From positions 3,630 to 67,629 of the forward strand of contig CANJPU010000009.1 of NCBI GenBank assembly GCA_947476285.1: 64,000 nucleotides of DNA, written 5' to 3'. Under the pieces are notes generated by a model. The model was not told the DNA's origin and ran no database searches. It was given only the letters and a program-made list of their open reading frames with translations. This stretch comes from Comamonadaceae bacterium. GTDB lineage: Bacteria; Pseudomonadota; Gammaproteobacteria; Burkholderiales; Burkholderiaceae_C. A program made the translations under genes and the position numbers. Below, one piece after another: positions 36,916-63,689 of this stretch. Position 1 is the first letter of the stretch; each line of letters begins with the position of its first letter.

Positions 36916-39210
36916 TCACCGCCGCACGGCCAAGAGCACAGTCTCGGCCGTAGCCGGCGCATCCAAGCGCACAGGCCCGCCACCGCGCGCGGTAGCCACC
37001 GCCTCGCGCAAGGCCTCCCACACGCTGATCGCCAACATGAAAGGCGGCTCGCCCACAGCCTTGCTTGCGCCAACGTTGTCTTCACGATTGGGTTCGGGCC
37101 ACAGGGCGACCTTGAAGTGCTCGGGAATGTCGCCTGTGGCCGGGATCTTGTAGGTGCTGGGCGCGTGGGTGCTCAGATAGCCTTTGTCATTCCAGACCAG
37201 TTGCTCGGTGGTGAGCCAGCCCATGCCCTGCACGAAGCCGCCTTCGATCTGCCCGATGTCAATGGCCGGATTGAGCGACGTGCCCACATCGTGCAAGATG
37301 TCCACCTCCAGCACGCGGCTCTCGCCGGTGAGGGTGTCGATGGCCACCTCGCTGCAGGCGGCGCCATAGCTAAAGTAATAGAAGGGCCGGCCAGTGAGCG
37401 TGGTCTTGTCGTAGTGGATCTTGGGCGTGCGGTAAAAACCATCGCTCCAGAGTTGTATGCGGTTGGCATACGCGGCCTTGACCACCTCGTCAAAGCTGCG
37501 TGTGGCGGCGGGCGAGATGACCCGCCCACCCTGGAAGCTCACCGCCCCGGCGCCGCAATTGTCCATGCCGCCCACGAACGCCGCGAGGTTCTCGCGCACA
37601 TGGCGCGCTGCAAACTGCGCGGCGCGGCCATTGAGGTCAGTGCCGCTGGACGCTGCGGTGGCCGACGCGTTGGGCACTTTGCTGGTATCGGCTGCGGTGC
37701 TGCACACCCGTGCAAAGGGCACGCCCAGTTCGTCGGCCACAACCTGGGCCACCTTGGTGTTCAAGCCCTGGCCCATCTCGGTGCCGCCGTGGTTCACCTG
37801 CACACTGCCGTCGGTGTACACATGCACCAATGCACCAGCCTGATTGAACAAGGTGGCCGTGAAGCTGATGCCAAACTTCACCGGCGTGATCGCGATGCCG
37901 CGCTTGATTACCGGGCTTTGCGCGTTCCAGGCTGCGATGCCCTGGCGCCGCTCGCGGTAGCCGCAATCCTTCGCCAGCCGAGTCAGAAGCGGATGCAAGA
38001 TGTTGTCTTCTACCTTCATCTGGTAGTGAGTCACGTTGCGCTCCTCGATGCCATAGAGGTTGCGCATGCGCACATCGAAGGGGTCCAGCCCGAGCCGGCG
38101 CGCGATGTCGCCCATGATGGCCTCGATCACGATCACGCCCTGGGGGCCGCCAAATCCGCGAAACGCAGTGTGACTCTGGGTGTTGGTCTTGCAGCGGTGC
38201 GAGATGATTTCTACGTCACTGAGGAAGTACGCGTTGTCGGTGTGGAAGATGGCCCGGTCGGCCACTGGGCCCGACAGATCGGCACTGAATCCGCAGTTGG
38301 CCAGCATGGTCAGCTTCAATGCGGCGATGAGGCCGTGGTCGTCGAAACCCACGGTGTAGTCATACGCAAAAGGGTGGCGCTTGCCGGTGACCATGAAGTC
38401 ATCGTCGCGGTCCAGCCGCAGCTTGACCGGGCAGCCGAACTTGCGCGCCGCCAGCGCGGCCCACACGGCCAGATGGCCCGCCTGGGTTTCTTTGCCGCCA
38501 AAGCCGCCGCCCATGCGCCGGCACTGCACCGTCACCGCGCTGTTGGACAAGCCCAGGGCGTGCGCCACCCAGTGCTGGACCTCGCCCGGGTGCTGGGTGC
38601 TCGAATGAATCTGCCATTGGCCTTGTTCCATGGGCAGGGCGTAGGCGATCTGGCCCTCCAGGTAGAAGTGTTCCTGCCCGCCCACTTCGAGTTGCCCAGT
38701 GAGCGTGTGTTTCGACCGGTCCATGGCCGCATCGGGCTCACCTCGGCGCACCGTGACCGGCGGCAGCACATAGCTTTTCGCCGCATGCGCATCGCGCGGG
38801 GTCAGCAGGGGCGGCAAGGGTTCGATCTTCAACTGCACTTTGCGCGCCGCGCGCCTGGCCTGCATGACAGTGTTGGCCAGCACCAGGCCCACGACCTGGC
38901 CAATGTGTTCGACCTTGTCGCGGGCGAAGATGGGTTCGTCATGCACAAATGTGGCCAGCAAGGGGTCGCCGGGGATGTCGCCCGCCAGCACCACACCGCG
39001 CACACCAGGCATGGCCAGTGCGGCCTGCGCGTTCACGCCGAGCAGACGGCCGTGTGCCTGGGTCGAGAGAATCGGCGCGGCGTGCAAGGTGCCCTTGACT
39101 TCGGGGATGTCGTCCACATAAGTGGCGCTTCCGGCGACCTGGGCACGGGCGCTTTCATGGGGGTGGGAGGCGCCGCTGGCTGGGTTGGAATCGGTGTCGA
39201 TCACCGTCAT
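36916..39210 (-). CDS. xdhB: Xanthine dehydrogenase molybdopterin subunit
   Basis: QEHFYLE, GGGFGGKE, AFRGFGGPQG, GTEMGQG, ASSG, SKAVGEPP. Confidence 0.97.
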   Translation of the reverse strand: MTVIDTDSNPASGASHPHESARAQVAGSATYVDDIPEVKGTLHAAPILSTQAHGRLLGVNAQAALAMPGVRGVVLAGDIPGDPLLATFVHDEPIFARDKVEHIGQVVGLVLANTVMQARRAARKVQLKIEPLPPLLTPRDAHAAKSYVLPPVTVRRGEPDAAMDRSKHTLTGQLEVGGQEHFYLEGQIAYALPMEQGQWQIHSSTQHPGEVQHWVAHALGLSNSAVTVQCRRMGGGFGGKETQAGHLAVWAALAARKFGCPVKLRLDRDDDFMVTGKRHPFAYDYTVGFDDHGLIAALKLTMLANCGFSADLSGPVADRAIFHTDNAYFLSDVEIISHRCKTNTQSHTAFRGFGGPQGVIVIEAIMGDIARRLGLDPFDVRMRNLYGIEERNVTHYQMKVEDNILHPLLTRLAKDCGYRERRQGIAAWNAQSPVIKRGIAITPVKFGISFTATLFNQAGALVHVYTDGSVQVNHGGTEMGQGLNTKVAQVVADELGVPFARVCSTAADTSKVPNASATAASSGTDLNGRAAQFAARHVRENLAAFVGGMDNCGAGAVSFQGGRVISPAATRSFDEVVKAAYANRIQLWSDGFYRTPKIHYDKTTLTGRPFYYFSYGAACSEVAIDTLTGESRVLEVDILHDVGTSLNPAIDIGQIEGGFVQGMGWLTTEQLVWNDKGYLSTHAPSTYKIPATGDIPEHFKVALWPEPNREDNVGASKAVGEPPFMLAISVWEALREAVATARGGGPVRLDAPATAETVLLAVRR

Positions 39211-40706
39211 GATGCATTCCCGCCTTTGTCACTGCGGACTTGATCCGCACGCCATTGGGCAGATTCCAGGTTGATGTTGTGCACGCCCTGGCTTTCCAGC
39301 CAGAAGCGCTGCATCAAATTGCCAAGCACCTGGCTGCGATAGGCGGCGCTGGCGCGCATGTCCGAGATGGGCTGGAACTCATCACGCAACTGCGCACTGG
39401 CCTCTTGCACCAGGGCTTGCGTCCACGGCTTACCCCCCAACACCTCCTCGGTGCGAAGGGCGCGCACCGGCGTGGCGGCCACACCGCCGACGCCGATGCG
39501 GGCCTGCGCCACCCTGCCCTCGGCAAGGCGCAGACGAACGACCAGGCAAACCGCGGAGATGTCATCGTCGTAGCGTTTGCTGATCTTGTAGGCGCGCAGC
39601 AACTCACCCGGCCCTGCAGGCCGCGGCACCTTGATCCAGGCCAGCACTTCATCGGGCGCCATCACGTTCTTGCGATAGCCGGTATAGAAATCTTCCAGCG
39701 GCATTTCGCGGTGACCGCGCACACTCATCACGACCACATGGGAACCCAAGGCGATCAAGAGGGGCATGGCGTCGCCAATGGGCGAGCCATTGGCGATGTT
39801 GCCGCCCAGCGTGCCCGAGTTGCGCACCGGCAGTCCGGCAAAACGCATGGCGAAGTGTTTCAACTGCGGGCGCTGCGCCACCAGCGCCTCGAAGGCATCG
39901 GTGAGGCTCACTGCCGCGCCGATGGCGATGTGGTGTTTGTAGTTTTCGATACGCCGCAGTTCCTCCACGCGGGTGACATCGAGCACCTTGGCAAACTGAA
40001 GGTGCATCTTGGTGACCCACAAGCCGACATCGGTGCAGCCAGCAACGAGTTGCGCGTCGAGGTGGGCGGCGCGATCTGAAAGCAGCGCGGCGAGCGTGCG
40101 TGGACTGAGGTAGGTGGCCCCGTCACTCGGTGCATTCAACTTCCGAAGCTGGCCGAGCAACTTCGCCCTGTCCACCCTGACCGGCGGCAGGCGCGCCATC
40201 GCCTGCGCCGCATCCAGTATGGGCCGGTAGCCGGTGCAGCGGCACAAATTACCCGACAAGGCTTCTTGAGCCAGCTCGCGGGTGATGGGCTCGCCACGGC
40301 AAACATGGTTCTCGTACATGCCGAACAGGCTCATCACGAAGCCCGGCGTGCAAAAACCGCACTGCGAGCCGTGGCAACGCACCATGGCCTCCTGGGCCGG
40401 GTGCAAGCCGGCGCCCTGAGCGGCGAGATCCTCCACCGTCCACAAGGCCATGCCGTCGATCGAGTGGGCCAAACGGATGCAACTGTTGATGGCACGAAAC
40501 TGAAGCTGCCCGCCATCGGCTGCGGCCGGACCGATATCGGCCAGGACCACGGTGCAAGCGCCACAGTCGCCCTCCCCGCAGCCCTCCTTGGTGCCGGTGC
40601 ACGACATATCCTCGCGCAGCACTTCCAACAGTGTGCGTTCGGGTGGTACATTGCCGATGGACACAAGTTCGCCCCGGCGGATAAATCTGATCGTTTTCGA
40701 TTCCAT
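39207..40706 (-). CDS. xdhA: Xanthine dehydrogenase Fe-S/FAD subunit
   Basis: GTKEGCGEGDCGAC, QCGFCTPG, GNLCRCTGY, DMRASAAYR. Confidence 0.97.
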   Translation of the reverse strand: MESKTIRFIRRGELVSIGNVPPERTLLEVLREDMSCTGTKEGCGEGDCGACTVVLADIGPAAADGGQLQFRAINSCIRLAHSIDGMALWTVEDLAAQGAGLHPAQEAMVRCHGSQCGFCTPGFVMSLFGMYENHVCRGEPITRELAQEALSGNLCRCTGYRPILDAAQAMARLPPVRVDRAKLLGQLRKLNAPSDGATYLSPRTLAALLSDRAAHLDAQLVAGCTDVGLWVTKMHLQFAKVLDVTRVEELRRIENYKHHIAIGAAVSLTDAFEALVAQRPQLKHFAMRFAGLPVRNSGTLGGNIANGSPIGDAMPLLIALGSHVVVMSVRGHREMPLEDFYTGYRKNVMAPDEVLAWIKVPRPAGPGELLRAYKISKRYDDDISAVCLVVRLRLAEGRVAQARIGVGGVAATPVRALRTEEVLGGKPWTQALVQEASAQLRDEFQPISDMRASAAYRSQVLGNLMQRFWLESQGVHNINLESAQWRADQVRSDKGGNAS

Positions 40707-40843
40707 GAATTCCAGTATGTTCGATTTTCTCGCGGTTGGCGCAAGACCTGACAAACGATTGTCGGGTGACCCGAGTTTGGTGCAAACAGGCTCCATCATG
40801 GTGCTCTCAGCACAAATGAACAAAGACTGAGAAGATACGAGCC

Positions 40844-49248: not shown

Positions 49249-49524
49249 ATGATCACCGTCACATCCGTGCAAGCCCAGAACAATTTCGGTCAGTTACTGG
49301 ACACTGCCCTGCGCGAACCCATAACGATCACACGGCACGGACGTCCGGCTGCATTCATTGTGTCACCGCAAGACATGGACGAGCTGATGGACGCGCGGCG
49401 CAAGCGCAGCAAGGCAGTTCAGGAATTTGAAGCTTTCTTCGCCAAGTCAGACAAGCATCTCAAGCCGGCTGCGCGCAAACTGACTGAGCAGGACATCGTC
49501 AAACTGGCGCGCACCAGTCGATGA
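49249..49524 (+). CDS. Phd/YefM-family antitoxin
   Basis: SVQAQNNFGQLLD..EPITITRHGRP. Confidence 0.9.
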   Translation: MITVTSVQAQNNFGQLLDTALREPITITRHGRPAAFIVSPQDMDELMDARRKRSKAVQEFEAFFAKSDKHLKPAARKLTEQDIVKLARTSR

Positions 49525-49982
49525 GCCGGCCGCCGCGCGCGGTGTTCGATACCAGCACCCTGATAGGCGCCTTGCTTGGCCCACGCTCCGTTCCCCGGCA
49601 AGCCCTGACCTTGGCTCTACCGAGCTTTGAGCTGTGCGTCTGCGAAGCCACCCTGACAGAACTCGACAAGGTGATGAGGCGAACCAAGTTTGACAAGTAC
49701 CTTTCATTGACCGAGCGCCTGGACTTCGTGGCCCTGTATCAGAGGCGGTCCTCGATGCACTCTGTGGACAGGTCGAGCGAATTGATCGCGCGCGACGTCT
49801 GTCGCGATCCAGAGGACGCAAAGTTCCTTGCGCTCGCCCACGCATGCTCAGCCGAAGTGCTGGTGTCGAGCGACGAAGACCTGCTGGTGCTCAATGGATG
49901 GCAGGGGATCGGCATCGTCCGCGCGTCGCAGTTTGTCGACGCACTTAACGGTGTATCGGGTACAGGCTATGCGGATCGCTGA
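49521..49982 (+). CDS. PIN-domain (VapC-like) toxin
   Basis: VFDTS, CRDPEDAKFL, SSDEDLL; ATGA overlap with antitoxin. Confidence 0.88.
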   Translation: MSRPPRAVFDTSTLIGALLGPRSVPRQALTLALPSFELCVCEATLTELDKVMRRTKFDKYLSLTERLDFVALYQRRSSMHSVDRSSELIARDVCRDPEDAKFLALAHACSAEVLVSSDEDLLVLNGWQGIGIVRASQFVDALNGVSGTGYADR

Positions 49983-53898: not shown

Positions 53899-54702
53899 TC
53901 AACTGACCTTAATCTGCGCGCTGACCGGATCGCTCGAATGGATGGCCAGCAGATTGCCGCCCATGGGGAAGGTCTTGTAGCCAGCGTCCTGGACAAACTT
54001 CAGAATGTCGCCTTCATTGGTCTTGATGCGTTCGATCAGGAGTTGGGGCTTGCATTCGTAGATGGTTTTCTTGCCGCCCATCAGCGCGTCCATCTCCATG
54101 GCCTCGATGTCGATCTTGACAAAATCAACGCGCTTGAGTTGCAAGTCATCGATCGCAATCATCTGGGTGAGTTGCATCTTGTCTTCGCTGTAATCGATCT
54201 GCTGGCCAATAAACTCGGTGCGCGCTGTCTTGCGGATTTCCAGGCTGCCGAAACTGCCGGGCTGAAAGTAATTTGGAATGGGCACGCGGATGGAACCGGC
54301 TTCCTGGCCTACCGCCGCCCACAGGGCCCGCGCGTTGAAGCAATTGTTCATGGTGATGTTGCCAGCCAGCGCGTAGAAGATGCGCTCCTGTGCTTCGAAG
54401 GCAATGACGCTGCCCCAGCCGTGCATGTGCTGGGCCCATTCAATGGTGTGCACGCCGATGTTGGCGCCACAGTCGATTCCCACCACGCCGTCGCCAAAGT
54501 TCTTGCGGCGCGCATCCAGCATCTGGACTGCGAAGTCCACCTCGCCCTGGTCAAAGCAAGACGCACCCAACAACTGGTGCCCCACCCCGTAGGCACCCCT
54601 GCCATCGGGCAGGATGTGATAGTCATGCCGGTTGACCAGCATGCTGCCGTGATTGGTTGCCAGCGTGACGAATGCGGTAGGGCGTCGGTTGGATCTTCTC
54701 AT
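53899..54702 (-). CDS. FkbM-family methyltransferase
   Basis: IDCGANIG, AFEAQ, VKIDIEAME, PQLLIE. Confidence 0.88.
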   Translation of the reverse strand: MRRSNRRPTAFVTLATNHGSMLVNRHDYHILPDGRGAYGVGHQLLGASCFDQGEVDFAVQMLDARRKNFGDGVVGIDCGANIGVHTIEWAQHMHGWGSVIAFEAQERIFYALAGNITMNNCFNARALWAAVGQEAGSIRVPIPNYFQPGSFGSLEIRKTARTEFIGQQIDYSEDKMQLTQMIAIDDLQLKRVDFVKIDIEAMEMDALMGGKKTIYECKPQLLIERIKTNEGDILKFVQDAGYKTFPMGGNLLAIHSSDPVSAQIKVS

Positions 54703-54780: not shown

Positions 54781-55134
54781 TCAAGACCCCCGATAGGTCG
54801 AGTAACTCCATGGGCTCACCAGCAAGGGCACGTGATAGTGCTGGTCTTCCTGCGCGACACCAAAATCAAGACTCACCTTGTTCAGGAAGCTCGGCTCTGG
54901 CAGATCAACACCCCGGCTTTTGAAATAACCGGCCACATCAAACACCAGTCTGTAGCTACCCCGCCTGAGCGCGCCATCCGGGTAGAGCGGGCCGTCCGGG
55001 CTGCGCCCGTCGGCATCCAGCACGAACTGCCGCACCAGCGTGGCTTGATCGCCTTGCGTGGTGTAGAGCGCCGCATGCATGCCGCCCGCCGGGCAGCCGT
55101 GCATGGTGTCGAGAACATGTGTGCTCAGGCCCAT
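54781..55134 (-). CDS. uraH: 5-hydroxyisourate hydrolase
   Basis: MGLSTHVLD, DGR, HYHVPLL, C-terminal YRGS. Confidence 0.96.
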   Translation of the reverse strand: MGLSTHVLDTMHGCPAGGMHAALYTTQGDQATLVRQFVLDADGRSPDGPLYPDGALRRGSYRLVFDVAGYFKSRGVDLPEPSFLNKVSLDFGVAQEDQHYHVPLLVSPWSYSTYRGS

Positions 55135-55158
55135 GGTGAATCCTTCAATCGATAGCAG

Positions 55159-55173
55159 AGTGTATGCAGTTTT
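55159..55173. promoter_or_regulatory. Shared 15-bp motif in uraH/puuE divergent promoter
   Basis: Identical to 52241-52255, same orientation relative to the minus-strand gene. Confidence 0.6.
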
Positions 55174-55212
55174 TCGACCAGCGCTATCATCCCAGAACCC
55201 TGAGACCCGCCC

Positions 55213-56172
55213 ATGCAAGAGGACACCCCCACCCCCTACCCGCGCGACCTGATCGGTTATGGCCGCAAGCCGCCACACGCACAATGGCCCGGCGGTGCGC
55301 GCATTGCGCTGCAGTTTGTGCTCAATTACGAAGAGGGCGCTGAGAACTGCGTGCTGCACGGCGATGCGGGCTCTGAACAATTTCTCTCCGAGATGTTCAA
55401 CCCGCCCAGCTTCCCCGATCGCCACCTGACCATGGAAAGCAGCTTCGAATACGGCTCGCGCGTGGGGGTGTGGCGCATTCTTCGCGAGTTCGAAAAGCGC
55501 AAGTTGCCGCTGACCATTTTTGGCGTGAGCATGGCACTGCAACGCCACCCCGAACTCACCGCTGCGCTGCTTGAGCTGGGCCACGAGATCGCCTGCCATG
55601 GCTGGCGCTGGATCAACTATCAGCAAGTCGATGAAGCCACCGAGCGCGAACACATGCGCCTGGCCCTGAAGGTGCTGCGCGAACTGACCGGCACGCCGCC
55701 CGCCAGTAAGCCTCCCCTGCACGGCGTGGGCTGGTACACCGGCCGCGACAGCCCCCATACCCGCCGCCTGCTTGCCGACCATGGCGGCACCGAATACGAC
55801 AGCGACTACTACGGCGACGACCTTCCCTTCTGGATGCCCGTGCGCAAGACCGATGGCAGTGTCGTGCCTCGGCTGATCGTGCCCTACACGCTGGATACCA
55901 ACGACATGCGCTTTGCCCAGCCCCAGGGTTTTTCGCAAGCCGAAGATTTTTTCATCTACCTGCGCGACAGCTTCGATGCGCTTTATGCCCAGGGCGATGA
56001 GTCGCCCGCCATGCTCAGCATCGGCATGCACTGCCGCCTGCTGGGCAGGCCCGGGCGCATTGTGGCGCTGCAGCGCTTTTTGGACCATGTGGCAAGGCAC
56101 GATCGCGTCTGGGTTTGCCGGCGCATTGACATCGCGCGCCACTGGCAGCGAACCCATCCCTTCCAAGGCTGA
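55213..56172 (+). CDS. puuE: Allantoinase PuuE (polysaccharide deacetylase fold)
   Basis: YPRDLIGYG, LNYEEG, YGSRVG, HGWRW, GWYTGR, GMHCRL. Confidence 0.95.
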   Translation: MQEDTPTPYPRDLIGYGRKPPHAQWPGGARIALQFVLNYEEGAENCVLHGDAGSEQFLSEMFNPPSFPDRHLTMESSFEYGSRVGVWRILREFEKRKLPLTIFGVSMALQRHPELTAALLELGHEIACHGWRWINYQQVDEATEREHMRLALKVLRELTGTPPASKPPLHGVGWYTGRDSPHTRRLLADHGGTEYDSDYYGDDLPFWMPVRKTDGSVVPRLIVPYTLDTNDMRFAQPQGFSQAEDFFIYLRDSFDALYAQGDESPAMLSIGMHCRLLGRPGRIVALQRFLDHVARHDRVWVCRRIDIARHWQRTHPFQG

Positions 56173-56183
56173 GGAAAGCCGCT

Positions 56184-57983
56184 ATGCCAATCACCCTGGA
56201 CGAACTCAATCAAGCAAGCACGGAGCAGGCCGCCGCCATGCTGGACGGTTTGTACGAACACTCCCCATGGGTGGCGCAGGCGGCCTTGCCCCTGCGCCCT
56301 TTCCATTCGCTCACGCACCTCAAGCACAGCATGGCGCGCATCGTGGCCGATGCCGGCAAGCAAGCCCAGCTCACCCTGATACGTGCCCACCCCGAGCTGG
56401 CCGGCAAGGCCATGGTCAGCAAAACGCTCACAGCCGAATCGACCCATGAGCAAGGCAAGGCTGGCCTGACCGATTGCACGCCGCAGGAGTTCACCAGGAT
56501 ACAAAAACTCAACACCGACTACAAAGCCAAGTTCGGTTTTCCTTTCATTCTGGCGGTGCTCGGCGCGCGCGGCGCAGGCCTGTCTAAGCAAGAGATCATC
56601 GACACCTTCGCGCGGCGACTGGAGAACTCACCCGACGAAGAATTGGCCCAGTCGCTGCGCAACATCCACCGCATCGTGGAGATGCGCCTGAATGTCAAAT
56701 TCGGCGTGCAACCCAGCCTGGGCGACCTGGTATGGGATTGGCATGAAAGCCTGGCGCAATTCAGCGACCCAGGCTTTGCCGAGCAAGGGCAGCTCACCGT
56801 CACCTACCTCACGCAGGCCCATCGCGCCGCTGCCGCGCAGATTGCAGACAACATGAAACGCTGCGGCTTCGATGAAGTGACGGTCGACGCCGTGGGCAAT
56901 GTGGTGGGCCGCTACCGAGCCACGCAGCCTGGTGCCAAGACCCTGATGACAGGCTCGCACTACGACACGGTGCGCAACGCCGGCAAGTACGACGGCAGAC
57001 TTGGCATCTTCACACCCATGGCTTGCGTTCGCGAACTCTCGCGCCAGGGCCGGCGCCTGCCCTTCGCCCTGGAAGTAGTCGGCTTCGCTGAAGAAGAAGG
57101 CCAACGCTACAAGGCATCCTTCCTCGGCTCGGGCGCACTGATTGGTGGGTTCAAGCCTGAGTGGCTTGATCTGCGTGACGATGAAGGCATCAGCATGCGC
57201 GAGGCCATGCAGGCCGCCGGGCATGCGGGCACGATGGAGGCGATCGCCGCCCTGCGCCGCAAGCAGCAAGACTATCTGGGCTTTGTCGAGGTGCATATCG
57301 AGCAAGGCCCAGTGCTGGCGCAAGCCGATCTGCCACTAGGCATCGTCACCTCCATCAACGGCAGCCTGCGCTATCAATGCGAAGTGCTGGGCACCGCCAG
57401 CCATGCCGGCACCACACCCATGAACCAGCGGCGCGATGCCGTGCTGGCTGTGGCCGAGCTGGCGCTCTACATGGAACAGCGCGCCACCCGCGATGCCGAT
57501 TCAGTTGCCACCATGGGCATGCTGCAAGTGCCGGGCGGCTCGGTCAATGTGGTGCCAGGGCGCTGCCAGTTCAGCCTGGACATGCGCGCACCCACCGATG
57601 CGCAGCGCGACGCACTGGCCGCTGACGTGCTGGCTCAACTGCACAGCCTGTGCGAAGCACGCGGCCTGCGTTGCAGCGCACTGGAAGTGCTGCGCGCGGC
57701 GGCGGCTCCCAGCGATGCACAGTGGCAGCAGCGCTGGGAAAAGGCCGTGCAGGCACTGGGCGTGCCGGTGTTTCGCCTGCCCAGCGGCGCCGGCCACGAC
57801 GCCATGAAGCTGCATGAGCTCATGCCCCAGGCCATGCTGTTTGTGCGCGGCCAGAACAACGGCATCAGCCACAACCCCCTGGAGAGCACCACCAGCGACG
57901 ACATGGAACTCGCCGTGCAGTCCTTCATGGCGCTGCTGGACCAGCTCTCGCAGGAGTCGGCAAGCGTGGGTGCACCCACATGA
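56184..57983 (+). CDS. uraD: OHCU decarboxylase (UraD) fused to allantoate amidohydrolase
   Basis: N-term EHSPW, HPELAG, KFGFPFI; C-term GSHYDTV, DG, EEEG, HIEQG, GAGHDA. Confidence 0.92.
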   Translation: MPITLDELNQASTEQAAAMLDGLYEHSPWVAQAALPLRPFHSLTHLKHSMARIVADAGKQAQLTLIRAHPELAGKAMVSKTLTAESTHEQGKAGLTDCTPQEFTRIQKLNTDYKAKFGFPFILAVLGARGAGLSKQEIIDTFARRLENSPDEELAQSLRNIHRIVEMRLNVKFGVQPSLGDLVWDWHESLAQFSDPGFAEQGQLTVTYLTQAHRAAAAQIADNMKRCGFDEVTVDAVGNVVGRYRATQPGAKTLMTGSHYDTVRNAGKYDGRLGIFTPMACVRELSRQGRRLPFALEVVGFAEEEGQRYKASFLGSGALIGGFKPEWLDLRDDEGISMREAMQAAGHAGTMEAIAALRRKQQDYLGFVEVHIEQGPVLAQADLPLGIVTSINGSLRYQCEVLGTASHAGTTPMNQRRDAVLAVAELALYMEQRATRDADSVATMGMLQVPGGSVNVVPGRCQFSLDMRAPTDAQRDALAADVLAQLHSLCEARGLRCSALEVLRAAAAPSDAQWQQRWEKAVQALGVPVFRLPSGAGHDAMKLHELMPQAMLFVRGQNNGISHNPLESTTSDDMELAVQSFMALLDQLSQESASVGAPT

Positions 57984-59209
57984 CAGAACACGACAAACTC
58001 GACGCCTGGGTCGATGCCCACTTCGATGAAGAAGTGCGCTTTCTTCAAGAGCTGGTGCGCGTGCCCACCGACACGCCGCCAGGCAACAACGCACCCCACG
58101 CGCAGCGCACCACGCAGTTGTTGCAGGCCTTCGGCTTTGAGGCCGAGCAATACCCTGTGCCGCAAGACGAAGTGCGCGCCTATGGCCTGCAGTCCCTCAC
58201 CAACCTCATCGTGCGTCGGCCTTACGGCCCGGGCGGGCGCACCATCGCGCTCAATGCCCACGGCGATGTCGTGCCACCGGGCGAGGGCTGGGCCCATGAT
58301 CCTTATGGCGCTCAGATTGAAGACGGCAAAATGTATGGCCGCGCCACGGCAGTGAGCAAGGGCGATTTCGCCAGCTTCACCTTCGCGGTGCGTGCGCTGG
58401 AATCATTGCAGGCGCAACTACATGGCAGCGTGGAATTGCACTTCACCTACGACGAAGAATTTGGCGGCGAGATGGGGCCGGGCTGGCTGCTGCGCAACAA
58501 GCTCACTCGGCCCGACCTGATGATTGCCGCGGGTTTCAGTTACGAAGTGGTCACCGCGCACAACGGCTGCCTGCAAATGGAAGTCACCGTGCACGGCAAG
58601 ATGGCCCATGCGGCCATACCGCACACCGGTGTGGATGCACTGCAGGGTGCGGTGCACATCCTTAATGCCTTGTATGCGCAAAACCAGCTCTACCGTGCGG
58701 TCAGCTCCAAGGTGCCGGGCATCACCCACCCCTACCTGAACGTGGGACGCATCGAAGGCGGCACCAACACCAATGTGGTCCCAGGCAAGGTGGCGTTCAA
58801 ATTCGATCGGCGCATGATCCCCGAGGAGGACCCCGTCGCTGTCGAGGCCAGCATACGGCAGGTGATTCAAGACAGCACCGGCGCCTGCCCTGGCATCACA
58901 GTGGACATCAAACGCCTGCTGCTGGCCCACTCGATGCAGCCCCTGCCCGGCAATCAGCCACTGGTCGATGCGATCCAAAAGCACGGCGCCGCGATTTTCG
59001 GCCAGCCCATTCCTGCGATGGGCACACCGCTCTACACCGACGTGCGCCTGTACGCCCAGGCAGGCATCCCCGGCGTGATCTACGGCGCAGGCCCGCGCAC
59101 GGTGCTGGAATCGCATGCCAAGCAGGCCGATGAGCGCCTGGATCTGCAAGACCTCAAAGGCGCCACCAAGGTCATCGCCCGCACGCTGCTCGATCTGCTG
59201 CGCTCTTGA
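57980..59209 (+). CDS. M20/ArgE-DapE-fold protein with non-canonical metal site
   Basis: NAHGDVVP, YGRATAVSKGD, YDEEFGG, GGTNTNVVP, DRR..PEE; ATGA overlap with upstream gene. Confidence 0.85.
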   Translation: MTEHDKLDAWVDAHFDEEVRFLQELVRVPTDTPPGNNAPHAQRTTQLLQAFGFEAEQYPVPQDEVRAYGLQSLTNLIVRRPYGPGGRTIALNAHGDVVPPGEGWAHDPYGAQIEDGKMYGRATAVSKGDFASFTFAVRALESLQAQLHGSVELHFTYDEEFGGEMGPGWLLRNKLTRPDLMIAAGFSYEVVTAHNGCLQMEVTVHGKMAHAAIPHTGVDALQGAVHILNALYAQNQLYRAVSSKVPGITHPYLNVGRIEGGTNTNVVPGKVAFKFDRRMIPEEDPVAVEASIRQVIQDSTGACPGITVDIKRLLLAHSMQPLPGNQPLVDAIQKHGAAIFGQPIPAMGTPLYTDVRLYAQAGIPGVIYGAGPRTVLESHAKQADERLDLQDLKGATKVIARTLLDLLRS

Positions 59210-59320
59210 GCGCGCACCGGGTTTGATCCTGTCAGCCCAAATTGGAAATGCCCCTCGCACCAGCCATCCGGTCTGCACCGGCATTGGCAATGCTGCGGTT
59301 GATTGCCTGCTTGGTTTGCG

Positions 59321-59552
59321 CGTCGCGTCAGGCGATGCCCGGCAGGCGCTCACTGTGGCGGTCTGCGCTTCGCTTCGACTTCGCTGGGATTTGCGGCCTG
59401 AGGTCGGCGGCGCATAACTCACTTCGCGCCCTTCGGCCGCTACGTTCAAACAGATGCGCCGAGCATGAATTGAAGCGCTTCGCGCCCAACCTCAGGCCGC
59501 AAATCCCAGCCGCCCCAGAATGAGCGCCTGCCGGGCATCGCCTGCCGCGACG
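59321..59552 (+). repeat. Nested-hairpin element A (MITE/REPIN-like or structured RNA)
   Basis: 32-bp terminal IR with one mismatch, 22-bp perfect inner IR (59383-59404 / 59489-59510), central GGCGCAT/ATGCGCC stem. Confidence 0.85.
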
Positions 59553-59628
59553 GGTAAGGGGTGGGCGTGCGTTGCGGTGAAGACATGTCGAGCGCACAGA
59601 TTCCACAATACGCAGCCCAGACGCCTTC

Positions 59629-59718
59629 TGTCATTGCGGGCTTGACCCGCAATCCATGCGACCCCGGCCAACACGTTTGTTCAAATGAGCTGGATCCCGG
59701 CTCGAGTCCGGGATGACA
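59629..59718. repeat. Intergenic REP doublet (TGTC-tagged)
   Basis: TGTCATTGCGGGCTTGACCCGCAATCCAT ... TGGATCCCGGCTCGAGTCCGGGATGACA. Confidence 0.88.
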
Positions 59719-59773
59719 GTGGTGGGTGTAGTGAGCACTCCGCCTGAAACCTTCGCGCGCCTACCAAGTTGTC

Positions 59774-60013
59774 TGTCGCGGCAGGCGCAAGGCGGCCAGG
59801 GCTCATTCTGGGGCGGCTGTGATTTGTGCTCTGGGGTCGGATCGCGCGTAGCGCGACACGTTGTCATGCTCGGTGCCCTTGTTTGAGCGGAGCGGCCGTA
59901 GGGCGCGCAGCGAGTTGGGCACCGCCGACCCCAGAGCGCAAATCACAGCGGAGTCGAAGCGCAGCGTAGACCGCCACAGCATGAGCCCTGGCCGCCTTGC
60001 GCCTGACGCGACA
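59774..60013 (-). repeat. Nested-hairpin element B, inverted diverged homolog of A
   Basis: 33-bp terminal IR with one mismatch, ~25-bp inner IR, central GGTGCCC/GGGCACC stem; spacers shared with A. Confidence 0.85.
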
Positions 60014-60269
60014 CGCGACACATACCGCATGAAGCGAAGCGCGACACATGAAAGCAGCGTACGAGGCCGGCGCCTAATTGCAGCCCAGTCAAGATAGCCT
60101 GCAACGGCTGCCCAGGGAACATGTCAAATTCAGGCCGCCACCCCGGGTTTGATCCACCCCAGGGTGGACAATATGACGCAGGACAAAGCGTCCGCTTTTT
60201 TTCTAGCCACCCATCGATCCACGCATGATCCAGCGTGCGAAGATTCGCTACCGTTCTCAGGAGACCGCA

Positions 60270-62564
<2,295 letters not shown>

Positions 62565-62651: not shown

Positions 62652-63689
62652 ATGAATATGCGCTTGGTCCTTCAATCCGCCCTCGCTTTGGGGCTGGCTA
62701 CCGGCATGGCCGTCGCCCAGGCCCAGACCACCCCCATCAAGTTCCAGCTTGACTGGCGCTTCGAAGGGCCGGCTGCGCTCTTCCTCACGCCAGTGGCCAA
62801 GGGCTACTTCAAGAGCGCAGGGCTGGACGTGACCGTCGACGCGGGCAACGGCTCGGGCGGCGCGGTCACCCGGGTTGCCTCGGGCACTTATGACATCGGC
62901 TTTGCCGACCTGGCCGCGCTGATGGAATTCCACGCCAACAACCCGGATGCACCCAACAAGCCGGTGGCCATCATGATGGTCTACAACAACACGCCCGCAT
63001 CGGTGATGGCACTGAAGAAATCAGGCATCACCAAGCCGGCCGACCTGGTCGGCAAGAAGCTGGGTGCGCCGGTGTTTGACGCCGGGCGCCGCGCCTTCCC
63101 TATCTTTCAGAAAGCCAATGGCATCGGCGCAGTGAACTGGACCGCGATGGACCCGCCGCTGCGCGAGACCATGCTGGCGCGCGGCGATGTCGATGCCATC
63201 ACCGGCTTTACTTTCACCTCGCTGCTCAACCTGGAAGCACGGGGCGTGAAGGCCGAAGATGTGGTGGTGCTGCCCTACGCCGATTACGGCGTCAAGCTCT
63301 ATGGCAACGTGATCATCGCCACACCGAAGATCATTCGCGAGAACCCGGCCGCCGTGAAAGCCTTTCTCGCAGCCTTCACCAAGGGCGCCAAGGACGTGGT
63401 GGCCAAGCCCGAGGCCGCCATTGCCGATGTGAAAGCGCGCGACGGCATCATCAACACCACGCTGGAGACCCGCCGGCTGAAGCTGGCGATTGACACCGTG
63501 ATCAACAGCCCCGATGCCCGCGCCGAAGGCTTTGGCCAGATCAACCCGGGGCGGCTGGCGCTCATGGCCTCGCAGGTGTCAGATGCCTTCGCCACCAAGA
63601 CGCGGGTGAATCCGGACGCAGTGTGGAACGGCTCTTTCCTGCCACCCAAGGCGGAGTTGAACAGCGTGTTGCCCGCGCCTAAGAAATGA
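62652..63689 (+). CDS. NMT1/THI5-like ABC substrate-binding protein
   Basis: Signal peptide, FQLDWRFEG, GNGS, GFADL, LYGN. Confidence 0.9.
   Translation: MNMRLVLQSALALGLATGMAVAQAQTTPIKFQLDWRFEGPAALFLTPVAKGYFKSAGLDVTVDAGNGSGGAVTRVASGTYDIGFADLAALMEFHANNPDAPNKPVAIMMVYNNTPASVMALKKSGITKPADLVGKKLGAPVFDAGRRAFPIFQKANGIGAVNWTAMDPPLRETMLARGDVDAITGFTFTSLLNLEARGVKAEDVVVLPYADYGVKLYGNVIIATPKIIRENPAAVKAFLAAFTKGAKDVVAKPEAAIADVKARDGIINTTLETRRLKLAIDTVINSPDARAEGFGQINPGRLALMASQVSDAFATKTRVNPDAVWNGSFLPPKAELNSVLPAPKK

What the first reader, a model, noticed from the sequence alone, without database searches (positions are those of the whole stretch)
57980..59209. M20 protein with a remodelled metal site: candidate missing ureide enzyme
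Compared with the DapE/ArgE motifs: His of NAHGD and the EE pair remain, but the bridging Asp (GRGAADMKG) reads GRATAVSKGD, the GEP Glu reads AAGFS, and the last His (HxxNE) reads SHAKQADE. Three of five ligands are replaced, with possible relocated Asp and His. The ORF is intact and coupled by ATGA to allantoate amidohydrolase, where the ureidoglycine-processing step is missing. Inference: a mono-metal or metal-free enzyme acting on ureidoglycine, ureidoglycolate or oxalurate, or a pseudo-enzyme partner. I know of no characterised member.
Basis: partly seen in the sequence, partly recalled or inferred. Interest (0 to 1): 0.75.

Follow-up and report, generated by a model that had tools for sequence, protein, structure and literature searches.

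The report
Remodelled M20 partner of allantoate amidohydrolase
An intact, strongly conserved enzyme-like gene sits directly behind the allantoate-splitting enzyme in the purine-breakdown operons of hundreds of bacterial species. It has lost three of the five metal-binding residues its family normally needs, so it probably carries out or assists the still unassigned next step of that pathway in an unusual way.

Summary
ORF 57980-59209 (409 aa) has the M20 ArgE/DapE fold. Against H. influenzae DapE, the bridging Asp is Val125, the GEP Glu is Ala184 and the last His is Lys381. His94, the general-base Glu159 and Glu160 remain. The start overlaps by ATGA the stop of a fused OHCU decarboxylase / allantoate amidohydrolase (AAH) gene.

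In 160 orthologs (48-86% identity), Val125, Ala184, Asp129, His94, Glu159, Glu160, His210 and Arg277/278 are invariant. Position 381 is Lys in the window's subclade (80/80) and His in the sister subclade (80/80). The proposed relocated His379 is not conserved.

An AAH gene lies immediately upstream in 77/77 and 39/53 loci with enough flank. A 31-38% identical sister clade (one member from Sulfobacillus) is also next to AAH.

In 2.0 Mb of ortholog loci there is no ureidoglycine aminohydrolase, one ureidoglycolate lyase and no second AAH paralog.

No characterised member was found. All source names are generic.

Best reading (about 0.5): a non-canonical enzyme, metal-poor or metal-free, acting on ureidoglycine or ureidoglycolate. 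Main rival (0.2): a non-catalytic partner of AAH. Function is inferred, not shown.

The parts
57980..59209 (+). M20t: 409-aa ArgE/DapE-fold M20 protein with a dismantled binuclear site
   Evidence: Pfam Peptidase_M20 plus M20_dimer. TIGR01910 scores 221.7 against a cutoff of 217.6, and all DapE/ArgE equivalog models fall far below their cutoffs. AF2 model has pLDDT 95.8. Foldseek top hits are DapE, ArgE and NaaA.
57980..57983 (+). ATGA start/stop overlap with the upstream AAH fusion gene (translational coupling)
   Evidence: Read directly from the sequence. The same 4-nt overlap occurs in 37/77 loci of subclade A and 17/39 of subclade B.
58259..58267 (+). Codons for His94-Gly95-Asp96 (HxD; first metal ligand retained)
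   Evidence: Invariant in 160 orthologs. Maps to DapE H67 and D69.
58352..58366 (+). Codons for Val125-Ser-Lys127-Gly-Asp129. Val replaces the bridging Asp; Asp129 is new and invariant.
   Evidence: GTG at 58352-58354 was read.
58454..58459 (+). Codons for Glu159 (general base) and Glu160 (metal-2 ligand), both retained
   Evidence: Invariant in 160 orthologs. Maps to DapE E134/E135.
58529..58531 (+). Codon for Ala184, replacing the metal-1 Glu of the GEP motif
   Evidence: Invariant Ala in 160 orthologs.
59120..59122 (+). Codon for Lys381 at the position of the last His ligand (DapE H349)
   Evidence: Ungapped register to Glu385. Lys in 80/80 of subclade A and His in 80/80 of subclade B.
56184..57983 (+). 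OHCU decarboxylase (res 9-170) fused to a canonical AAH-type M20 amidase (res ~180-599)
   Evidence: Pfam and NCBIfam hits. 32% identical to E. coli AllC with all motifs kept.
55213..56172 (+). PuuE-type allantoinase
   Evidence: TIGR03212 scores 481.5 bits against a cutoff of 424.6.
54781..55134 (-). 5-hydroxyisourate hydrolase
   Evidence: TIGR02962. Gene call taken from the identical contig L001.
51004..52200 (-). PuuD-type membrane urate oxidase (Urate_ox_N)
   Evidence: Pfam annotation on the identical contig L001.
52280..53149 (-). XdhC accessory protein
   Evidence: TIGR02964.
36916..40823 (-). Xanthine dehydrogenase XdhA and XdhB
   Evidence: TIGR02963 and TIGR02965, both above cutoff.

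Best explanation
M20t is a functional ureide-pathway protein that works directly after allantoate amidohydrolase (AAH).

Shown by the data:
- It has an intact two-domain M20 fold.
- The binuclear centre cannot form: the bridging Asp is Val125, the metal-1 Glu is Ala184, and the metal-2 His is Lys381.
- The general-base Glu159 is invariant, as are His94/Asp96, Glu160 and the residues that align with the DapE substrate pocket (His194, His210, Asn265, Arg278, Tyr352, Arg356).
- The gene is co-transcribed with AAH and usually translationally coupled to it.

Inferred:
- It is an enzyme that takes the unstable AAH product (S)-ureidoglycine, or the ureidoglycolate derived from it, towards glyoxylate.
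- Arg278 would hold the substrate carboxylate.
- The acidic cluster left by the lost metals (Asp96, Asp129, Glu159, Glu160) would hold the substrate amine or hydroxyl and activate water.
- Residue 381 (Lys here, His in the sister subclade) would act as a cationic proton donor rather than a metal ligand.
- At most one loosely held metal, possibly brought in by the substrate, would take part, as in the M20 hydrolytic deaminase NaaA.
- In the window's subclade, the Asp36/Cys37/His199/His381 set of the sister subclade reads Asn/Asn/Gln/Lys. That suggests a metal-free version.
For: Fold and selection:
- AF2 model pLDDT 95.8; DapE, ArgE and NaaA are the best structural matches.
- dN/dS is 0.10-0.21 within the subclade.
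- 115 positions are conserved across both subclades. They include E159, H94, D96, E160, K127, D129, H194, H210, N265, R277/R278, Y352 and R356, which map onto DapE active-site and substrate residues.

Linkage:
- AAH is adjacent upstream on the same strand in 77/77 and 39/53 loci. The ATGA overlap occurs in 37 and 17 of them.
- PuuE, HIU hydrolase, OHCU decarboxylase and PuuD are in the same loci.
- The sister clade P0142/P0256/P0260 (31-38% identity; P0256 is from Sulfobacillus) shows allantoin-type racemase - M20' - AAH - PucR - AllB.

Open slot in the pathway:
- In 2.0 Mb of ortholog loci there are 0 AllE hits, 1 AllA, 1 allantoicase and no second AAH/UAH paralog.
- Gcl/Hyi/GlxR or glycerate kinase often follow, so glyoxylate is the expected product.
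- In E. coli, allE sits next to allC.

Residue 381 and precedent:
- The His/Lys alternation at 381 occurs with an otherwise invariant site and an unchanged context.
- NaaA, an active M20 aminohydrolase, also lacks the C-terminal His motif. It is structurally as close as 3pfo (TMq 0.82-0.83).
Against: No biochemical or genetic datum exists.

Genome-wide absence of UGlyAH, AllA or UAH in these organisms could not be tested. Only +/-10 kb around each gene was visible.

L146 has allantoicase-AllA-M20t. That route makes no ureidoglycine and already has a ureidoglycolate lyase.

Three loci add a PucG-like aminotransferase, which also consumes ureidoglycine.

A more degenerate sister clade (P0135: His->Tyr twice, Asp->Ile, base Glu->Gly) is still next to AAH. 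This fits a non-catalytic role at least for that clade.

Confidence: 0.5

Rival explanations
1. Non-catalytic (pseudo-enzyme) partner. M20t would form a heteromer with the AAH-type M20 amidase through the shared dimerisation domain. It would stabilise AAH, regulate it, or channel its product, without turning over a substrate itself.
For: Both proteins carry M20_dimer domains. The gene pair is conserved in both orders and in two phyla (Pseudomonadota and Bacillota), and is often translationally coupled. Three of the five ligands are lost, and a ligand position swaps His for Lys without any change of context. Still more degenerate relatives remain beside AAH-like or other M20 genes: P0135 has lost the general base, and P0133 is similarly degenerate.
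Against: The general-base Glu159, His94, Glu160 and pocket residues including the carboxylate-binding Arg278 are invariant over 160 orthologs. That is unusual for a dead site. The neighbouring AAH domain keeps its own trans-acting motifs (SHAGTTPM, NVVPG, RA/RH), so it needs no donor. From my own knowledge, E. coli and plant AAH are active homodimers. No AAH-M20t fusion was seen.
Confidence: 0.2
2. Amidohydrolase for oxalurate or another downstream ureide, for example after PucG-type transamination of ureidoglycine, rather than for ureidoglycine or ureidoglycolate.
For: A PucG-like class V aminotransferase lies in the same operon in L089, L090 and L093 (AAH-M20t-PuuE-PucG), and in the P0135 clade (AAH-PucG-M20'). 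From my own knowledge, the fate of oxalurate in PucG-type pathways has no assigned hydrolase.
Against: A PucG-like gene is present in only 3 of 160 ortholog loci and is absent from the window. AllD is absent. Amide hydrolysis without a metal centre is chemically harder than the deamination or elimination of a carbinolamine or aminal.
Confidence: 0.1
3. Ordinary ArgE/DapE-type N-acyl-amino-acid deacylase, as the sources annotate it, placed next to purine genes by chance.
For: TIGR01910 scores just above its cutoff (221.7 vs 217.6). JGI names it succinyl-diaminopimelate desuccinylase.
Against: The bridging Asp, the metal-1 Glu and the metal-2 His are all missing, invariantly. Every DapE/ArgE equivalog model scores far below its cutoff. 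AAH adjacency in 77/77 loci cannot be chance.
Confidence: 0.03

Closest known systems
DapE / ArgE (M20A deacylases; PDB 7uoi, 5vo3, 3ic1, 7rsf)
   Same: Same two-domain fold (Foldseek E 1e-34 to 1e-31, TMq 0.76-0.80). Shares the HxD motif, the Glu-Glu pair, the trans-acting His of the dimerisation domain (H210) and the carboxylate-binding Arg (R278).
   Different: Lacks the bridging Asp, the metal-1 Glu and the metal-2 His (V125, A184, K381). Has a longer GAGPRT loop before the last ligand position. Its context is purine catabolism, not lysine or arginine synthesis.
5-nitroanthranilate aminohydrolase NaaA (M20; PDB 5k8m-5k8p)
   Same: M20 fold, as close structurally as the best DapE/ArgE-like hits (TMq 0.82-0.83). 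Best PDB match for the C-terminal 114 residues, and it also lacks the last His...DE ligand motif. From my own knowledge of Kalyoncu et al. 2016 (paper not held), it is a hydrolytic deaminase whose single metal is labile and is loaded with the substrate.
   Different: Only about 20% identical. Its substrate is aromatic and it forms an octamer. Its other ligand positions were not compared here. It has no link to purine genes.
(S)-ureidoglycine aminohydrolase UGlyAH / AllE (Mn bicupin)
   Same: In E. coli it occupies the same genomic slot, directly beside allC. The reaction it catalyses is the one left unassigned in the M20t clusters.
   Different: Unrelated fold. No sequence similarity and no co-occurrence in any of the 168 loci examined.
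AAH / ureidoglycolate amidohydrolase UAH / N-carbamoyl-amino-acid amidohydrolases (M20, TIGR01879)
   Same: Same superfamily and pathway. These enzymes have ureido substrates.
   Different: A different M20 subfamily. M20t matches none of these models, whereas its upstream neighbour does. They keep a full binuclear site.

Membership tests
Peptidase M20 (Pfam PF01546 + PF07687), ArgE/DapE subfamily TIGR01910 | Catalytic domain plus inserted dimerisation domain; profile score above cutoff | tested here: met
   PF01546 93.7 bits and PF07687 73.2 bits. TIGR01910 221.7 vs 217.6, which is marginal. AF2 pLDDT 95.8 and Foldseek hits to DapE/ArgE.
Peptidase M20 (canonical co-catalytic metallohydrolase) | Five metal ligands: His, bridging Asp, Glu, Glu/Asp, His | tested here: not met
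   Only His94 and Glu160 remain. Asp->Val125, Glu->Ala184 and His->Lys381 are invariant in the subclade.
Peptidase M20 | General-base Glu preceding the metal-binding Glu | tested here: met
   Glu159 is invariant in 160 orthologs.
DapE or ArgE proper (equivalog level) | Score above the equivalog cutoffs; lysine or arginine biosynthetic role | tested here: not met
   Best equivalog NF006400 scores 197 vs 374. TIGR01892 scores 150.5 vs 297.7 and TIGR01246 scores 85 vs 362. The context is purine catabolism.
AAH / UAH / carbamoylase family (TIGR01879) | Match to the hydantoinase/carbamoylase amidase model; His-Asp-Glu-His-His site | tested here: not met
   No such model appears among the best 25 of M20t's 57 NCBIfam hits. 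The upstream ORF scores 327.6 on it.
UGlyAH (AllE, bicupin) | Cupin fold; homology to AllE | tested here: not met
   Different fold. tblastn with AllE finds nothing in the window or the loci. Only functional analogy is proposed.
UGlyAH-like or UAH-like activity (function, not family) | Conversion of ureidoglycine or ureidoglycolate | not testable with these tools
   Requires an enzyme assay. Only genomic association is available.
NaaA-like M20 aminohydrolases with a labile single metal | Incomplete ligand set; metal loaded with the substrate | tested here: inconclusive
   Structural similarity TMq 0.82-0.83. NaaA also lacks the last His motif. The other ligand positions and the metal behaviour were not tested.

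The most novel reading that the evidence does not exclude
M20t is a metal-independent enzyme built on the M20 metallopeptidase scaffold. Lys381 and an acidic cluster would stand where the two metals were. It would be the non-homologous replacement of the Mn-cupin ureidoglycine aminohydrolase, or a one-step ureidoglycine-to-glyoxylate enzyme, in the purine catabolism of several hundred Burkholderiales species, with metal-retaining relatives in other lineages (one sister-clade member is from Sulfobacillus, Bacillota).
Probability: 0.3. Interest if true: 0.8.

Novelty: new variant of a known kind. Interest (0 to 1): 0.66.

Why it matters
Databases treat bacterial purine and ureide catabolism as solved. 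Yet these operons encode every step from xanthine to ureidoglycine and then only this unassigned gene.

It would also correct a systematic misannotation as 'succinyl-diaminopimelate desuccinylase'.

It would further add a second example, after NaaA, of an M20 scaffold working without its co-catalytic metal pair. The natural His/Lys and Cys/Asn switch between sister subclades could then be used to study how a metal site is replaced.

If it instead proves to be a pseudo-enzyme partner, it would be the first heteromeric M20 amidase that I know of.

Tried and rejected
- Relocated His379 as a replacement ligand: rejected, because it is Asn in 20/80 close orthologs.
- phmmer's gapped alignment that kept the last His: replaced by the ungapped register, which shows Lys381 and is confirmed by the subclade pattern.
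- The 249-aa gene between hiuH and puuE in 47 related loci as a possible UGlyAH: it is a GntR/FCD regulator.
- Frequent neighbours in both locus sets, checked for cupin or AllA: none found.
- First locus search with the diverse alignment A1: failed because no stretch was conserved enough.
- Literature searches for a characterised member or for notes on the missing step: nothing relevant.
- The NaaA paper could not be read.
- tRNA and Rfam scans of the downstream spacer: empty.
- (a PDB search with a truncated query) added nothing.
- Genome-wide presence or absence of UGlyAH, AllA or UAH could not be tested.
- Coordinates of the AF2 model are not exposed, so no distances around D129, K381 or N37 could be measured.
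Full report
**Observation**

Its ATG overlaps the TGA of the upstream 599-aa ORF, giving ATGA at 57980-57983.

The upstream ORF is an OHCU decarboxylase domain fused to an AAH-type M20 amidase. That amidase domain is 32% identical to E. coli AllC and keeps all of its motifs: SH.DTV, DG, AEEEG, HIEQG, SHAGTTPM and GAGHDA.

M20t itself matches Pfam Peptidase_M20 and M20_dimer. It scores just above the cutoff of the generic ArgE/DapE subfamily model TIGR01910 (221.7 vs 217.6). Every DapE or ArgE equivalog model scores far below its cutoff.

**The metal site**

A profile alignment to H. influenzae DapE (3ic1, native numbering) gives this mapping:

| DapE | M20t | Role |
|---|---|---|
| H67 | H94 | metal-1 ligand, kept |
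| D100 | V125 | bridging Asp, lost |
| E134 | E159 | general base, kept |
| E135 | E160 | metal-2 ligand, kept |
| E163 | A184 | metal-1 ligand, lost |
| H349 | K381 | metal-2 ligand, lost |

phmmer had kept the last His only by inserting a 2-residue gap. The ungapped register from the invariant Glu385 places Lys381 there.

DapE substrate-pocket residues map as follows: R178->H194, trans H194->H210, N245->N265, R258->R278, T325->Y352, R329->R356 and N345->E377.

An AlphaFold2 model built on a 51-sequence alignment is very confident (pLDDT 95.8, pTM 0.92). Only the 371-380 loop is lower, at 82. Its best PDB neighbours are DapE 7uoi, the ArgE-like 3pfo (TMq 0.84), DapE 5vo3, and the M20 hydrolytic deaminase NaaA (TMq 0.82-0.83). 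For the C-terminal 114 residues NaaA is the best PDB hit, and it also lacks the last His...DE motif.

**Is it conserved?**

The family is large. 8000 of 8000 scored candidates had E<=1e-10, and the best 120 are at least 82% identical. They come from Caenimonas, Ramlibacter and Polaromonas, and all names are generic.

The best 80 (74-83% identity) are Comamonadaceae, genera such as Rubrivivax, Aquabacterium and Rhizobacter, and Achromobacter.

A 52% identical representative, P0123, was used to fetch 80 further loci from metagenomes, at 48-58% identity to the window protein. Its named close relatives are uncultured Burkholderiales or Betaproteobacteria, again with generic names.

Across these 160 orthologs, H94, D96, V125, K127, D129, E159, E160, A184, H210, R277 and R278 are invariant. 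In total 115 positions are conserved in both subclades.

Position 381 is Lys in 80/80 of the window's subclade (A) and His in 80/80 of the sister subclade (B). Position 379 is His in 60 and Asn in 20 of subclade A, so the 'relocated His' is not supported.

Several positions co-vary with 381 at 95-100%:

| Position | Subclade A | Subclade B |
|---|---|---|
| 36 | Asn | Asp |
| 37 | Asn | Cys |
| 199 | Gln | His |
| 381 | Lys | His |

Pairwise dN/dS within subclade A is 0.10-0.21.

**Context**

The window carries a purine catabolic island:
- XdhAB (36916-40823, -)
- a BMP-type ABC transporter
- adenosine deaminase
- glycerate 2-kinase
- PuuD-type urate oxidase
- XdhC
- HIU hydrolase
- PuuE
- the OHCU decarboxylase / AAH fusion
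- M20t

The rest of the window holds unrelated genes. No cupin, AllE or AllA is present.

In subclade A an AAH gene lies immediately upstream on the same strand in 77 of 77 loci with enough flank, and 37 of these have the 4-nt overlap. In subclade B the figures are 39 of 53, with 17 overlaps. Another five subclade B loci have purine genes nearby. The loci without purine genes are scattered singletons in the tree, not a separate paralog.

Across the 2.0 Mb of the 160 ortholog loci:

| Gene | Loci with a hit |
|---|---|
| E. coli AllE (UGlyAH) | 0 |
| AllA | 1 |
| Allantoicase | 1 |
| Second AAH/UAH paralog | 0 |
| PucG-like aminotransferase | 3 |
| Urease accessory gene | 9 |

Glyoxylate-assimilation genes (Gcl, Hyi, GlxR, glycerate kinase) often follow. 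In E. coli, by contrast, allE sits directly beside allC.

**A wider radiation**

Among 52 full-length 50%-cluster representatives, many relatives at 30-40% identity also lack the bridging Asp and the GEP Glu. Canonical sites reappear only at about 30-33% identity.

- **P0142/P0256/P0260 clade (one member from Sulfobacillus).** It has the subclade-B-type site. It lies in racemase - M20' - AAH - PucR - AllB allantoinase clusters.
- **P0135 clade.** It is more degenerate: both His->Tyr, Asp->Ile, and base Glu->Gly. It lies in PucR | AAH - PucG-like - M20'.
- **P0133.** It lies beside a canonical M20 and hydantoinase A/B.
- **P0149 and P0198.** They lie beside ornithine-cyclodeaminase-like genes.

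So pairing of a remodelled M20 with an AAH-type M20 is old and recurrent.

**Mechanism**

What is shown:
- The protein is intact, under purifying selection and co-expressed with AAH.
- It cannot form the family's binuclear centre.
- It keeps the general base and a carboxylate-binding pocket.

What I infer, as the most likely reading (about 0.5), is an enzyme acting on the AAH product (S)-ureidoglycine or on ureidoglycolate:
- Arg278 would bind the carboxylate.
- The acidic residues freed from metal binding would bind the amine or hydroxyl and activate water.
- Residue 381 would serve as a cationic proton donor. His and Lys can both do that, but only His is a good metal ligand.
- Loss of ammonia or urea from these aminal or carbinolamide substrates is already spontaneous, so it needs only acid-base help and stereocontrol.

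NaaA shows that an M20 with an incomplete site can be an active hydrolytic deaminase (and my own knowledge). The Asp/Cys/His/His to Asn/Asn/Gln/Lys switch suggests that the window's subclade is a metal-free derivative of a mono-metal ancestor. That rests on sequence only.

**Rivals**

- **Non-catalytic partner of AAH (0.2).** It is supported by the two-M20 gene pairing, the ligand losses and the very degenerate P0135 clade. It is weakened by the invariant catalytic and pocket residues and by the self-sufficient AAH motifs.
- **Role on oxalurate (0.1).** It is suggested by the PucG co-occurrence in three loci and in the P0135 clade.
- **Ordinary DapE/ArgE activity (0.03).** It is essentially excluded.

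Locus L146 (allantoicase - AllA - M20t) is a single case that fits none of the enzyme readings cleanly. I record it as unexplained.

**Novelty**

No source name, family model or paper assigns a function (and the literature calls). I class this as a new variant of a known kind: an M20 subfamily with a remodelled, probably metal-poor site, dedicated to ureide catabolism.

The function still needs an assay, a genome-wide profile and a knockout.

Noticed in passing
window 59316-60016: The 1-kb spacer after M20t holds two inverted copies of a self-complementary element of about 240 nt. The arms are 43 nt at 88-93% complementarity and 116 nt at 84%. Public contigs carrying the identical gene end or diverge at 59552-59601. 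This looks like a REP/MITE-type repeat that breaks assemblies. No tRNA or Rfam match was found.
   Followed up: partly
window 53899-54702 (-): An FkbM-family methyltransferase gene lies inside the purine cluster between xdhC and hiuH. None of the 80 related genome loci has a homolog there, so it is probably a lineage-specific insertion.
   Followed up: partly
window 55135-55212: 47 of 80 related loci carry a GntR/FCD regulator between hiuH and puuE. The window has only a short gap of about 60-80 bp there, so the usual local regulator is missing.
   Followed up: partly
window 49249-49982 (+): A PhdYeFM antitoxin / PIN toxin pair sits between the tartrate-dehydrogenase-like gene and the TctC receptor of the purine island.
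   Followed up: no
window 56184-57983 (+): The OHCU decarboxylase and AAH domains are fused into one 599-aa protein. NCBIfam PRK13799 still names this 'unknown domain/N-carbamoyl-L-amino acid hydrolase fusion'. The fusion is typical of subclade A; many subclade B loci have the two genes separate.
   Followed up: partly
L146 6135-9236: This locus has an allantoicase - ureidoglycolate lyase (AllA) - M20t operon with no adjacent AAH. It is the only ortholog locus with AllA or allantoicase. It does not fit the ureidoglycine hypothesis.
   Followed up: partly
L089, L090, L093; L174/L175 3434-7275: PucG-like class V aminotransferases share operons with remodelled M20 genes. The arrangements are AAH-M20t-PuuE-PucG in L089, L090 and L093, and AAH-PucG-M20' in the P0135 clade. 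The P0135 site has Tyr for both His residues and Gly for the general base.
   Followed up: partly
M20t residues 36, 37, 199, 381 (window 58085-58090, 58574-58576, 59120-59122): There is strict co-variation between the subclades: Asn/Asn/Gln/Lys in the window's subclade versus Asp/Cys/His/His in the sister subclade. A 'PPG-[DE]C' motif is widespread in the degenerate radiation, while canonical relatives have 'PPG-xY'. Spatial proximity to the active site was not verified.
   Followed up: partly
window 62652-63689 (+) and 60225-62564 (+): An NMT1/THI5-like ABC substrate-binding protein and the NADP-malic enzyme MaeB lie downstream. The same two gene families recur downstream of M20t in 32 and 21 of the 80 related loci. 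This suggests a further conserved module of the island.
   Followed up: no
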